From the human T2T-CHM13v2.0 reference genome, Homo sapiens, in NCBI RefSeq assembly GCF_009914755.1, contig NC_060932.1: a stretch of DNA of 64,000 bases; one strand, written 5' to 3'. The notes below the pieces were generated by a model that made no database searches, was not told the origin of the DNA, and saw only the letters and a list, made by a program, of their open reading frames with translations. The position numbers and the translations under genes are program-made. Below are positions 59,514 through 63,041 of the stretch, one piece after another. Numbering within the stretch: position 1 is the stretch's first letter; each line of letters opens with the position of its first letter.

Positions 59514-61080
59514 TCAGGGAACAAACTCACTCTTGAAGACCACTCATGACATGACCAAGGTTACAACATAGCCAGCAAGTGGCAGAGCTAAGGACTCATC
59601 CAGTGGGCTTTCCAATTCCAACTTGGCTTCTCTCACAGGCCAGAAATCAGGCATCCACCTACTACAGGCCTGGGCTTCTCTGCTGCTTTGTCCCACAATA
59701 GGGGCTCATGGAGGGCAAGGAAAAAGCACTCAAGTCATCTGGCATCGTCTTTGTGTCATCCAAGACAGACCTGGGAAGGGCTGTTTCTCTGAATTCCTGT
59801 TTCACCAGAAATCCCAGACTTCTCGAGAAAACTGTGAAACCTCATTCCTCGCCTTCCCCCTTCACAGCTGCCCGATAGCAGCAGGAGCTAAGCTAGTAAA
59901 CCACCCTTCTGTTGAGCTATCCTAAGCCTAAAATATCCTAGCTGGGTGTCTGGTCTGCCCCTGCTGCCCCAGAGACACTGCACTCCCTCTGTAGTTGGCA
60001 CTATACTGGCTACACCCCAGCCTTGTCCTGAAGTTGGTGCTGTGTTTGCAGATGAAAGCTGCCTGGAGAAACCTCACAGCTTCTCTTCTGGGCACACACG
60101 CCCACCTCATCTCTCAAGACACTGGCCATCTGCCAGGTACCCGAGGTCAAGGCAGAATCAAGGAAGAGGGACAATGACTCCTCCTGCCAAGCCTTGGGGA
60201 GCCGGCTCCTGCTGCCTGACGCCCCCCGCAGAGAGCTCTCAGTCCCAACAGCTCCACAGGCAGTATCTATTTAGCCAAGGGCTAGGTCTGAGCTGGACTG
60301 TCACTCAAAAGGCACAGGTCCGACTGCAGGACCCAGAGGGCACCTCCCAAGGGGCTGTGGCCAGAAAACAGAAACTAGTGTTTCTCTCTGAGGACACATG
60401 CCTTCCCTGGGCCCAACCCAGAGTTTGGCCAGATGAGCACATTTACCTGTATGCCTACCCTCTCACCTTGACCTTTCATTCTGGAAACTTCTTTTCCCAT
60501 CATCTAGAACTTTCTCTCCTTCCCCCCACTGTCCCCATGCACTCCTGCTTTCCTGGTATCCTATCTCTCTTTCCAGAATAGGAAACCCTGGGTGGCAGAG
60601 CAATGTTTAACCTCAAAGAATGAATTGCTAATGGTAGAATTTTAGTCATCACCTGCTGTAGGTTGGAAGGAGCCCTCCATGACAACAATAATGAACTACC
60701 AGCAAGTGCACGGCCTTCAACAGCCTTCGGTGCTTTTTTCTGCAAGTTTGCCTCCCTTGGGCCTCCCAAGAGCTTTCTGAAATCAGTATCTCTCACATGG
60801 GAAGATGTATAGTCCAGGCATCAAGTGATCTGTCCCACTACGTGACAGCGATCACACAGTCAGGAAGCTGCTGATCTAGGACTGGGCCAAGGTGTCCTAA
60901 CTAACCCCAAATTCCCTATTTGTGAGTTAGCTTTTGCTTAAATGCTTTAGTAAAATAAAATAAAATACTTTTTAATTTTAAGAACAAAGACAATTTCTTA
61001 TAAATATCTCCAGTGACAGGATCTTGTTTGACTCAGGGGCTGCATTCTACATCACAGATAACGCGGACAATTGAGTGGCC

Positions 61081-61581
61081 TTTCTTTCTTTTTTTTTCCT
61101 TTCTTTGCTTTTTTTTTTTTTTTTTTTTTTTGACATGGTCTCACTTTGTCACCCAGGCTGGATTGCAGCGGTGCCATCATAGCTCACTGCAGCTTCAGCC
61201 TCCCCAGGCTCAGGTGATCCTCCCACCTCAGCCTCCCGTCTCTACAAAAGATACAAAAATTAGTTGAGCGTGGAGGTGCACACCTGGCCTGTGTTGACAT
61301 TCGTGCCATTGAGCTGTTGGACTTTCTCAGCTCCCTGGTCCTGCTCATCAGCTCCCTCTCACTCACAGTGGTCACCTATGTTTACATCATCTCCACCATT
61401 CTGAAGATACCCTCAGGCCAAGGTCAATGTAAAGCCTTTGCCACCCGTGCCTCTCACTTTACGGTGGTCTCCATGGGCTATGGGATCTCCATCTTTGTCT
61501 ACTACAGGCGTGCACCTCCATGCCCAGCTAATTTTTGTATCTTTTGTAGAGACGGGGTTTCACCATGTTGCCCAGGCTGGT
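61081..61581 (-). mobile_element. Truncated AluJ-like element disrupted by a complex insertion
   Basis: Antisense Alu runs to ..cagcctccc (61237) and resumes at actacagg (61501); ends ~61581. Confidence 0.9.
61281..61502 (+). pseudogene. OR6R2P: Olfactory receptor gene fragment (ECL2-TM5-ICL3-TM6, family-6-like), inserted in an Alu
   Basis: 74 open codons [74 protein letters not shown]. They carry the OR motifs LAC.D, (S/T)Y..I...IL.I.S and KAFSTCxSH (here KAFATRASH). No start codon or other TM segments. The symbol is from my recollection of an OR6R pseudogene beside GFRA2 and is less certain than the OR call. Confidence 0.85.
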
Positions 61582-63041
61582 GAGTGGTTTTTCCTTATGC
61601 CAATATGGAATTTGCCTTTCCATAACTCCCATGTCCACAAGGATCCAGTATATGGGGAGGATCCTGGAAGTCCCTCAGACTGCAGTGGCCTTTGGGCAGA
61701 AAGCAGCATGTCTGCCCCTGAAGTGCTGGCTGTTGTGGATGCTGTTTGCTTTCAACAACAGCAGGCTGCTCCTTGCCACAACGAGCAGCTACAGTTCCCC
61801 CTCCTACTCCCCAGCAAAAGTCACCATAGTCACCATCACGTCCAGTCCACACAGTGGGCTCCAGGATGGGACATTCCCAGGGGTACAGGCACCTGCTGCC
61901 TCCCCACTACAAAAGGCAGTCTGCACTCCCCCAAGCAATGAAGCCCAGGATTCTGCAGTCTTCCCTTGCCCTGGGATGGGCCCAGCCTTTCATATTCTTC
62001 CTACCTGACTCCTGGGAGAACATCCCACCCAGCATTATGGAAAGAGGCTTGGACAAGGGTTTGAGTTCTAGCTTTGACCCCAGACATGCTGCCAGCCCAG
62101 AAAAGAGTTCAGCACAGTCTGGGGTAGCGCAATGCCCATGGTCAGCCCTCAGGAAGGATTTCCTAGTGGAAAGAAAGAAAAAGGAAGCAAGAGAGGGAGG
62201 GAAAGAGGGAGGGAGGGATGTGTGTACTGTTGAATCTCAGTGCTCTCCTCATCTCTGCTCCAACCTAACTCCCGAAATTCATCTTCCATCCAGTTCACCT
62301 CATGGAATGAGCCAGCAAGGTACACTTGGATTCAGCCACCCGCTCTGCCACCAGCTGACCATGTGACTTTAGTTCCTCTAGGATAACAGTCCTCTACCCT
62401 GCCCTTGTCACAAGGGACAAGGATGATCAAATGAGACACTGAATATGACTATGCTTTGAAATGTAAGCAATGCCCTGCAGACGTAAGAACCTGTTGACTT
62501 TTCCAGGCAGCCCACATCCCATGGTGAGTTCTGGGGACCACCCTTCGCTATCTGTTTCAGGATGAGTACCCCCTGCCCACTGCACTACTTGGGACAGCTT
62601 TTGCTACTCCAGTGACTCGGTGCTCCTTTGTAAAAAGGAACTTTCCCTTTTCACAGGTGAGAATACTGAGGCCTCCAGGTCCTGCTGTGTATGCTTCTCT
62701 TAGCTCTTCTTGCACTCTGTTGAAGTCTCCCATTCTTATCTGTACTCTTCACTCAACTCAAAGCTCTGTTCGAACATGACCTACATCCTCTTCATCACCA
62801 TAGCCTTAGGGGCTGGCCCATGATAACTGCCCAATGAGTGTAGAATGAATGAATGGGCAAATGATGCCTCTAACCCAATATAACCTTAGCACAGGGTCTG
62901 AGGCCCAGGATCACTAGCCTAGTTCAAACCACTTATCTACTTGTTTGGGAGTCACTAGGGTCTAACTGACCCACACAATAAATGCTTCTCTTTCCTCCCC
63001 TTCCGTTCTCTTTAGTGAAAATTGATATATCTGACCAGAGG

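What the first reader, a model, noticed from the sequence alone, without database searches (positions are those of the whole stretch)
61235..61556. Orphan olfactory-receptor fragment captured inside an Alu by a templated insertion with a 52-bp inverted duplication
Seen: the antisense Alu breaks after cagcctccc, lacks ~11 consensus nt (gagtagctggg), and resumes at actacagg (61501). The gap holds two pieces. First, 61235-61286 is the reverse complement of the Alu's own 61505-61556 (48/52 identical, sharing private variants such as tctacaaaagatacaaaaat and tggaggtgca). Second, 222 nt of OR coding sequence (61281-61502) follows, with no poly-A, no TSD and no other OR sequence recognisable in the window. 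Junction overlaps are ccc, cacctg and ac. Inference: double-strand-break repair with serial template switches (Pol theta/MMBIR-like), first to the other broken end and then to a distant OR gene or its cDNA. That is an unusual origin for an OR pseudogene, and it leaves a stem-loop with the OR piece as the loop.
Basis: partly seen in the sequence, partly recalled or inferred. Interest (0 to 1): 0.75.

Follow-up and report, generated by a model that had tools for sequence, protein, structure and literature searches.

The report
Olfactory-receptor scrap patched into an Alu
A 221-base piece of an olfactory-receptor gene, together with a back-to-front copy of the neighbouring Alu sequence, was pasted into a broken Alu repeat as a repair patch, which shows how an isolated "pseudogene" can arise without any gene ever having lived there.

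Summary
Arms 61235-61286 and 61505-61556 are a 52-nt inverted repeat, 48 of 52. Between them lie 74 open codons of an OR6-type receptor, TM5 to TM6 only.

The host is one old, 5'-truncated antisense Alu. It has a T-tail and a probable target-site duplication (TGAGTGG at 61072 and 61581). It lacks exactly 11 columns at the break.

The OR piece is 95% identical (210 of 221) to a near full-length OR pseudogene on chr1. Homology stops exactly at 61281 and 61501. No other OR similarity exists in the 64-kb window, so the wider RefSeq OR6R2P span is not supported.

The arms' shared variant combination occurs only twice in the 3.1-Gb genome. Single variants are not private.

The two inserted pieces show the same divergence.

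Best reading: a fixed "class 2" templated insertion made during break repair, with an 11-nt microdeletion, no TSD or poly-A, and microhomologies of 3, 6 (5 of 6) and 1-2 nt.

The mechanism class is known. Enzyme, order of switches and RNA versus DNA donor stay open. Interest is modest.

The parts
61072..61088 (.). Upstream copy of the host Alu's probable target-site duplication (TGAGTGGCCTTTCTTTC)
   Evidence: 7 nt are exact and 13 of 17 match 61581-61597. With the downstream copy held to the Alu's end, 22 of 5000 shuffles reach 7 exact. Without that positional constraint the match is not rare: 418 of 2000 shuffles.
61089..61131 (-). T-rich tail, which is the decayed poly-A of the antisense Alu
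   Evidence: Read directly. It aligns with the T-tails of 6 other Alus.
61132..61237 (-). Host Alu, 3' part (antisense), ending ...CAGCCTCCC at the break
   Evidence: Alignment with 6 window Alus. It differs from the column majority of 11 window Alus at 21 of 106 columns.
61235..61286 (+). Inverted (sense-oriented) copy of the host Alu's own 61505-61556. It overlaps the left Alu end by ccc and the OR piece by cacctg.
   Evidence: 48 of 52. No other genomic match at 3 or fewer mismatches. The shared haplotype occurs only at the two arms in the whole genome.
61281..61502 (+). Olfactory-receptor coding fragment: 74 open codons, TM5 to TM6, OR6 type, copied from elsewhere
   Evidence: It is 95% identical (210 of 221) to G000:C1:247264345-247264565, and homology ends at 61281 and 61501.
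61501..61581 (-). Host Alu, middle part (antisense), restarting at ACTACAGG. The Alu is 5'-truncated and ends at ...GCCCAGGCTGGT.
   Evidence: Alignment with 6 window Alus, which run about 75 nt further. It differs from the majority of 12 window Alus at 9 of 81 columns.
61581..61597 (.). Downstream copy of the probable target-site duplication (TGAGTGGTTTTTCCTTA)

Best explanation
An old, 5'-truncated Alu inserted here by ordinary L1-driven retrotransposition, leaving a T-tail and a target-site duplication. Long afterwards, roughly 10-40 million years ago, it suffered a break or a stalled fork inside ...CAGCCTCCC|GAGTAGCTGGG|ACTACAGG... and lost 11 nt.

Repair was by copy-and-paste synthesis with template switches at short microhomologies. 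About 221 nt were copied from an OR6R-type olfactory-receptor gene or its transcript; the best surviving relative is on chr1 and still holds the sequence. About 49-52 nt were copied from the Alu's own right flank, in inverted orientation.

My preferred order (inferred, not shown):
1. The right end's 3' overhang (minus strand) primed on the OR template with 1-2 nt of homology.
2. After about 221 nt it snapped back onto its own strand through the 6-bp CAGGTG/CACGCCTG-type match, which holds one T.G pair, and copied 52 nt of itself.
3. It then annealed to the left end through GGG/CCC.

The result is a non-functional OR 'pseudogene' of 74 codons that forms the loop of a 52-bp potential hairpin in a GFRA2 intron. 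It belongs with the 'class 2' templated sequence insertions described for human break repair.
For: One Alu, one insertion:
- The two Alu parts are continuous except for 11 columns (6 of 6 reference Alus).
- Their outer ends carry TGAGTGG... repeats (13 of 17; constrained shuffles 22 of 5000).

Copy, not cut:
- The chr1 locus keeps the 221 nt inside a continuous OR reading frame.

Sharp homology ends:
- Homology stops at 61281 and 61501.
- Every base between the Alu ends is accounted for by the two templates.

The inverted piece comes from the host:
- No other match at 3 or fewer mismatches.
- The haplotype pattern occurs 2 times in 3.1 Gb, both at this locus.
- The 20 best other Alus lie 5-11 edits from it, against 4 for the host arm.

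The event is later than the Alu insertion:
- Against the majority of 12 unselected Alus, the arms share 6 differences and have 4 private ones (3 left, 1 right).

The two inserted pieces are of the same age:
- 11 of 221 against 4 of 52, Fisher p 0.50; non-CpG 8 of 211 against 2 of 46.

Fit to a known class:
- No TSD, no poly-A, a microdeletion and microhomology are the stated marks of class 2 templated insertions (PMC5110952, passages read).
- Pol theta extends ends on templates in cis (snap-back) and in trans (PMC4912351, abstract in the listing).
Against: - No outgroup genome was available, so an uninterrupted ancestral Alu has not been seen.
- The TSD is imperfect (13 of 17). Without the positional constraint a 7-mer match is common (418 of 2000 shuffles; 456 of 2000 random window pairs).
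- Other Alus are as close to the right arm (3-4 edits; one, L012, at 3) as the left copy is (4). The case for a local origin therefore rests on the left copy's view and on the unique haplotype.
- An insert of about 270 nt is much longer than the Pol theta insertions I recall as typical.
- Priming on a distant donor with 1-2 nt of homology is weak.
- The age match rests on 4 and 11 differences, with wide intervals (2.1-19.7% and 2.5-8.9%).
- RefSeq draws OR6R2P as 60907-61717, which implies that someone saw OR similarity I could not reproduce.
Confidence: 0.78

Rival explanations
1. The composite was made during the Alu's own retrotransposition. While the second strand was being copied from the first-strand cDNA, the L1 ORF2 polymerase jumped to an OR mRNA, then to the Alu RNA itself, then back to the cDNA. 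This would be a twin-priming-like template-switching event.
For: Read on the minus strand, both inserted pieces have the polarity of cDNA: antisense OR, then antisense Alu positions about 160 to 105. A reverse transcriptase copying sense RNAs would give exactly that (sequence; my inference). The microhomologies and the small loss at the junction fit template jumps as well. The TSD shows that L1 machinery acted here.
Against: - The arms share 6 differences from the Alu majority but differ from each other at only 4.
- The host as a whole differs at 30 of 187 columns.
- If both arms dated from the insertion, they should be about as far from each other as two lineages of the Alu's full age.
- The shared haplotype would then be that of the source RNA, yet no other Alu in the genome has it.
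- Several shared differences are CpG decay products, as expected after insertion.
Confidence: 0.07
2. Two separate events hit the same spot. One was an inverted duplication of 52 nt (fold-back repair). At another time, a captured OR fragment was added.
For: The tools cannot show that the two pieces arrived together. The divergence estimates have wide intervals.
Against: - The pieces abut with a 6-nt overlap and no intervening or lost bases.
- Their divergences agree (Fisher p 0.50; non-CpG 3.8% against 4.3%).
- Two breaks at the same nucleotide are less likely than one.
Confidence: 0.1
3. A resident olfactory-receptor gene, spanning 60907-61717 as RefSeq draws OR6R2P, decayed in place and was later invaded by Alu sequences.
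For: The RefSeq span covers both flanks. By eye the downstream frame reads ...SITPMSTRIQYMGRILEV..., faintly like the TM7 motif of receptors.
Against: - tblastn with the chr1 OR translation finds nothing in either flank even at E up to 100.
- Pfam and PDB searches of the downstream 53 residues find no receptor.
- DNA homology to chr1 falls from 95% to nothing at both edges.
- The TSD makes the two flanks adjacent before the Alu came, leaving no room for a receptor.
Confidence: 0.02

Closest known systems
Class 2 templated sequence insertions (TSI / TSIP; Onozawa and Aplan, PMC5110952)
   Same: A patch of a few hundred bases is copied from a distant locus that keeps its own copy. It has no target-site duplication and no poly-A. 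A microdeletion (11 nt) and microhomology mark the junctions.
   Different: This one is old (about 5% diverged) and, as far as one genome can show, fixed rather than polymorphic. It carries a second templated piece, an inverted copy of the flank. It lies inside an Alu and is annotated as a gene-family pseudogene. An RNA origin, which that paper proposes for the class, cannot be tested here.
Pol theta-mediated end joining / synthesis-dependent MMEJ with snap-back and trans templated extension (PMC4912351, PMC5728401; abstracts seen in the listing)
   Same: An inverted copy of sequence next to the break. Short microhomology sits at each switch, and several templates are used in series.
   Different: From recall, such insertions are usually a few to a few tens of bases and are templated within the break's neighbourhood. 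Here the pieces are 52 nt and 221 nt, and one template lies on another chromosome. Enzyme dependence cannot be tested from sequence.
Replication-based template switching (FoSTeS / MMBIR), named from my own knowledge, not from a call
   Same: Serial switches at microhomology. An inverted local duplication is combined with sequence from a distant locus.
   Different: Those models were built for rearrangements of kilobases to megabases. This is a 274-nt scar, and there is no evidence for or against a replication fork.
Processed (L1-made) pseudogenes and class 1 TSIPs
   Same: A copy of coding sequence at a new locus, with the donor retained.
   Different: The OR piece has no poly-A, no TSD of its own and no TTTT/A site. 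It is an internal 221-nt piece of the coding region.

Membership tests
Class 2 templated sequence insertion (break-repair patch) | [quoted passage not shown] | tested here: met
   95% match (210 of 221) on another chromosome. The donor OR frame is continuous through the region.
Class 2 templated sequence insertion (break-repair patch) | No target-site duplication around the insert; microdeletion instead | tested here: met
   11 Alu columns are lost at the site and none is duplicated (sequence).
Class 2 templated sequence insertion (break-repair patch) | No poly-A tract or poly-A signal at the insert's end | tested here: met
   The OR piece runs straight into ACTACAGG of the Alu.
Class 2 templated sequence insertion (break-repair patch) | End-joining marks at the junctions (microhomology or untemplated bases) | tested here: met
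   Overlaps are ccc, cacctg (5 of 6 to the Alu arm) and a or ac. There are no untemplated bases.
Class 2 templated sequence insertion (break-repair patch) | Derived from reverse-transcribed RNA (proposed for the class) | not testable with these tools
   OR coding regions have no introns, so DNA and cDNA donors look alike.
Class 2 templated sequence insertion (break-repair patch) | Polymorphic among people (needed for the name TSIP only) | not testable with these tools
   Only one human assembly was held. PMC2978733 lists OR6R2P in hg18 as well.
Pol theta / SD-MMEJ templated insertion | The insert copies sequence flanking the break, direct or inverted, primed at microhomology | tested here: met
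   The 52-nt inverted copy of 61505-61556 starts 4 nt from the break edge.
Pol theta / SD-MMEJ templated insertion | Dependence on Pol theta | not testable with these tools
   This needs genetics. Sequence alone cannot tell it from a replicative switch or a cDNA patch.
L1-mediated retrocopy (processed pseudogene / class 1 TSIP), for the OR piece | TSD, poly-A tail, insertion at a TTTT/A-like site | tested here: not met
   None of the three is present at the OR piece's borders.
L1-mediated SINE insertion, for the host Alu | A-tail, flanking TSD, T-rich nick site | tested here: met
   T-tail at 61089-61131. TSD of 13 of 17 with 7 exact (22 of 5000 constrained shuffles). The downstream copy ends ...CCTT/A. 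The TSD is imperfect.
Olfactory receptor gene (Pfam 7tm_4) | A full seven-helix receptor coding region of about 310 codons | tested here: not met
   Only residues matching 185-257 of 312 are present. No other OR similarity exists in the window.

The most novel reading that the evidence does not exclude
The patch was copied from an olfactory-receptor transcript in germ cells. A single repair polymerase first copied about 220 nt in trans and then snapped back for 52 nt. That would make this a fixed germline scar of long-range, RNA-templated, multi-switch end joining. If so, isolated gene-family 'pseudogenes' with sharp homology edges and no poly-A could be mined as a fossil record of this repair route, and inverted-flank pieces would give its strand polarity.
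Probability: 0.2. Interest if true: 0.55.

Novelty: new member of a known kind. Interest (0 to 1): 0.35.

Why it matters
This is a cleanly dissectable fossil of error-prone break repair in the human germline. Every base of a 274-nt insertion can be assigned to a template, and all three switch points are visible.

It corrects the picture of an annotated pseudogene. OR6R2P is not the remnant of a receptor gene on chromosome 8. It is a 221-nt repair patch inside an Alu, and the RefSeq span overstates it.

It also leaves a 52-bp inverted repeat (predicted single-strand fold -74 kcal/mol, z -9.1) in a GFRA2 intron. A structure of that kind can itself provoke further breaks.

None of this changes known mechanisms. 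It adds a well-resolved old example, and a way to look for more.

Tried and rejected
- Resident-gene reading: rejected (see rivals).
- 'Private variants' as sufficient proof: rejected in that form. The right arm has many near relatives (40 scored of 1427 candidates, 91-98% identity), and the 20 fetched lie 3-7 edits from it. I replaced this argument with the genome-wide haplotype count and the search at 3 or fewer mismatches.
- Unconstrained TSD statistics gave no support: the 7-mer was reached by 418 of 2000 shuffles and the 13-of-17 score by 48 of 2000. Only the position-constrained test is telling.
- A search allowing more than 3 mismatches was not possible, so the number of Alus at exactly 4 mismatches from the 52-mer is unknown.
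- Naming the chr1 locus: no paper holds OR6R1P, and I have no annotation for that place, so I leave it unnamed.
- Literature on this locus: OR6R2P occurs in 1 paper, in a supporting-information line about copy number only. No paper holds 'olfactory receptor', 'pseudogene', 'templated insertion' and 'Alu' together. These searches cover only the held library.
- I did not open the supplements of PMC2978733. They concern copy-number calls.

Full report
**What is there**

From left to right on the plus strand:

| Coordinates | Feature |
|---|---|
| 61089-61131 | T-rich tail |
| 61132-61237 | antisense Alu sequence, ending ...CAGCCTCCC |
| 61235-61286 | 52 nt of sense-oriented Alu sequence |
| 61281-61502 | olfactory-receptor (OR) coding sequence |
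| 61501-61581 | antisense Alu sequence again, starting at ACTACAGG and stopping at ...GCCCAGGCTGGT |

- The repeat finder reports one inverted repeat in 60600-62100: 61235-61286 against 61505-61556, 52 nt, 92% complementary, 218 nt apart.
- As single-stranded DNA, 61225-61566 folds with the two arms as a long stem. The energy is -74 kcal/mol against -36.2 +/- 4.2 for 100 shuffles (z -9.1; none folds as well).

**The OR piece**

- Frame 1 from 61281 gives 74 residues without a stop. The other two frames hold stops.
- The translation matches OR6-type receptors in the PDB at residues 185-257 of 312 (E 4.3e-19 and 3.2e-18). It matches Pfam 7tm_4 at profile positions 156-227 of 280 (E 2.5e-6).
- It is therefore TM5 to TM6 of a receptor and nothing more.

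**Where it came from**

The window's own genome could be searched. The 222 nt find six places:
- itself;
- G000:C1:247264345-247264565 on the minus strand, at 95% identity;
- four places at 71-77% identity.

The chr1 locus holds a near full-length OR reading frame with an in-frame stop near the start, and the N-terminus continues in another frame. It is thus a pseudogene that is otherwise complete, and the 221 nt sit inside its continuous frame. The transfer was therefore a copy, not an excision.

blastn of window 60000-63000 against 3.2 kb of that locus aligns 61281-61501 only. Side by side, identity is 210 of 221 inside and vanishes on both sides.

**No other OR sequence**

- tblastn of 307 residues of the chr1 translation against all 64 kb, with word size 2 and E up to 100, gives one real hit: 61281-61502 (E 1.9e-28).
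- Nothing appears on the plus strand in 60907-61075 or 61581-61717.
- The 53 residues downstream (61580-61738), which faintly resemble a TM7 motif by eye, match no receptor in the PDB at E up to 10 and no Pfam family.
- The RefSeq span given for OR6R2P (60907-61717) is therefore wider than any OR similarity I can detect.

**The host is one Alu**

- Seven other Alus in the window contain both host parts adjacent to each other. The gap between the matches is 12-13 nt in six of them and 16 nt in the seventh, which matched the left part only partially.
- In an alignment with six of them, 6 of 6 have exactly 11 columns (GAGTAGCTGGG or near variants) between the host's last left base and its restart.
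- The host stops about 75 nt short of the other Alus' 5' ends, so it is 5'-truncated.
- Directly before the T-tail lies TGAGTGGCCTTTCTTTC (61072-61088). Directly after the Alu's last base lies TGAGTGGTTTTTCCTTA (61581-61597). Seven bases are exact and 13 of 17 match.
- Taken without regard to position this is weak. A 7-mer is reached by 418 of 2000 shuffles and 456 of 2000 random window pairs. The 13-of-17 score is reached by 48 of 2000 shuffles and 134 of 2000 pairs.
- When the downstream copy is required to start within five bases of the Alu's end, 22 of 5000 shuffles reach it.

I take this as a probable target-site duplication. It means the two flanks were adjacent before the Alu came. Everything between them, including the OR piece, lies inside a single Alu insertion.

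**Is the 52-mer a copy of its own host?**

- The right Alu part has many close relatives. Of 1427 candidates, 40 were scored, at 91-98% identity.
- I fetched 20 of the 39 scored places other than the query's own place. They lie 3-7 edits from the right arm's 52 nt. One, L012, lies at 3, closer than the left copy at 4. They lie 5-11 edits from the left copy.
- In the alignment, CTACAAAAGATAC occurs in 4 of the 20. The shorter GGAGGTGCA occurs in 10 of the 20, of which 9 carry the full GGAGGTGCAC. None has both motifs.

Three results then settle the matter from the left copy's side:
- No place in 3.1 Gb other than itself matches the 52-mer with 3 or fewer mismatches.
- The host arm, at 4 mismatches, is the nearest of all sequences examined.
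- A pattern of 27 fixed bases spanning both variant groups, with 8 N between, occurs exactly twice in the genome. Those are the two arms, on opposite strands. The reversed-pattern control gives 0.

**Order in time**

- Against the column majority of 12 unselected Alus of the window, the 52 columns split as follows: 42 where both arms equal the majority, 6 where both differ in the same way, 3 where only the left differs, and 1 where only the right differs.
- The whole host differs from the majority at 30 of 187 columns (21 of 106 and 9 of 81). That count includes subfamily differences, since the reference Alus are of mixed kinds.
- The Alu had therefore already acquired most of its peculiarities when the 52 nt were copied.
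- The haplotype has no other carrier. That makes it unlikely to be the signature of a source gene.
- The two inserted pieces are equally diverged from their templates: 11 of 221 (5.0%, 95% interval 2.5-8.9) and 4 of 52 (7.7%, 2.1-19.7), Fisher p 0.50. Outside CpG the figures are 8 of 211 and 2 of 46.
- With about 1e-9 substitutions per site per year per lineage (a figure from my own knowledge), 5% between copies means roughly 25 million years, with a range of about 10-40.

**Junctions (coordinates)**

| Junction | Coordinates | Overlap |
|---|---|---|
| Left | 61235-61237 | ccc, shared by the left Alu end and the inverted copy |
| Middle | 61281-61286 | cacctg |
| Right | 61501 (a), possibly 61502 (c) | 1-2 nt, see below |

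- At the middle junction, cacctg is perfect to the chr1 OR (CCACCTGG) and 5 of 6 to the Alu arm (CACGCCTG). The odd base is an A where the arm has the G of a CpG.
- At the right junction, the a at 61501 is shared. The c at 61502 is Alu-like, and chr1 has T there (TAT against TAC).
- No base is left untemplated.

**Mechanism**

Shown:
- a copy-and-paste insertion of two templated pieces into a pre-existing Alu;
- an 11-nt loss;
- no TSD or poly-A for the insert;
- short overlaps at all three joints.

These are the marks listed for class 2 templated sequence insertions, which are read as break-repair patches (PMC5110952, passages read).

Inferred:
- After resection, the strand that survives at the right end is the minus strand. 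That strand is itself the template needed for the inverted 52 nt.
- A simple path follows. The right 3' end copied the OR template in trans. It then folded back on itself, pairing CAGGTG with its own CACGCCTG region (six pairs, one of them T.G; or four pairs followed by a later CpG change). It copied 52 nt and finally paired GGG with the left end's CCC.
- Templated extension in cis (snap-back) and in trans is described for Pol theta (PMC4912351) and for SD-MMEJ (PMC5728401). I saw only their abstracts in the listing.
That would mean invasion of unresected or sister DNA, or a fork-based switch. It gives the same product and is not excluded.
- The enzyme, and DNA versus RNA as donor, cannot be told from the sequence.

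**Rivals**

1. Template jumping by the L1 polymerase during the Alu's own insertion. It is attractive because both inserted pieces have cDNA polarity on the minus strand. However, it predicts arms as old as the Alu and a source-gene haplotype, and neither is seen. I give it about 7%.
2. Two separate events at one nucleotide. This cannot be excluded without outgroups. I give it about 10%.
3. A resident receptor gene. It is contradicted. I give it about 2%.

**Known or new**

- OR6R2P is an annotated pseudogene. In the held library it appears in one paper, in a supporting-information line about copy number.
- No paper in the library combines the terms for an OR pseudogene, templated insertion and Alu.
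- The mechanism class is well known. What is new is the assignment of this pseudogene to that class, the base-by-base account of the insert, and the correction of its extent.
- I rate it a new member of a known kind, of modest interest.

Noticed in passing
window 60907-61717: The RefSeq span of OR6R2P (811 nt) includes about 590 nt that show no detectable OR similarity (Alu parts and unique flanks). Only 61281-61501 is OR-derived.
   Followed up: yes
L002 (G000:C1:247262845-247266065), minus strand: The chr1 relative is a nearly complete OR reading frame. It has an in-frame stop near the start, and the N-terminal residues continue in another frame, so it is a pseudogene disabled only at its 5' end. 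I could not name it from any call.
   Followed up: partly
window 61559-61999, + strand: One frame stays open for 147 codons downstream of the Alu. The first 53 residues match no Pfam family and no PDB chain of note. It is probably chance in GC-rich intron sequence.
   Followed up: partly
window 61080-61131: The Alu's tail is a decayed CTTT/T-rich tract of about 50 nt. It was reported as a 3-copy direct repeat family. It is ordinary for an old A-tail.
   Followed up: no
PMC2978733, supporting information: The authors removed OR6R2P from their copy-number output because hg18 held an exact second copy in its unassembled fraction. In the complete assembly searched here only one 100% copy exists, so that second copy was probably an assembly artefact.
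   Followed up: partly
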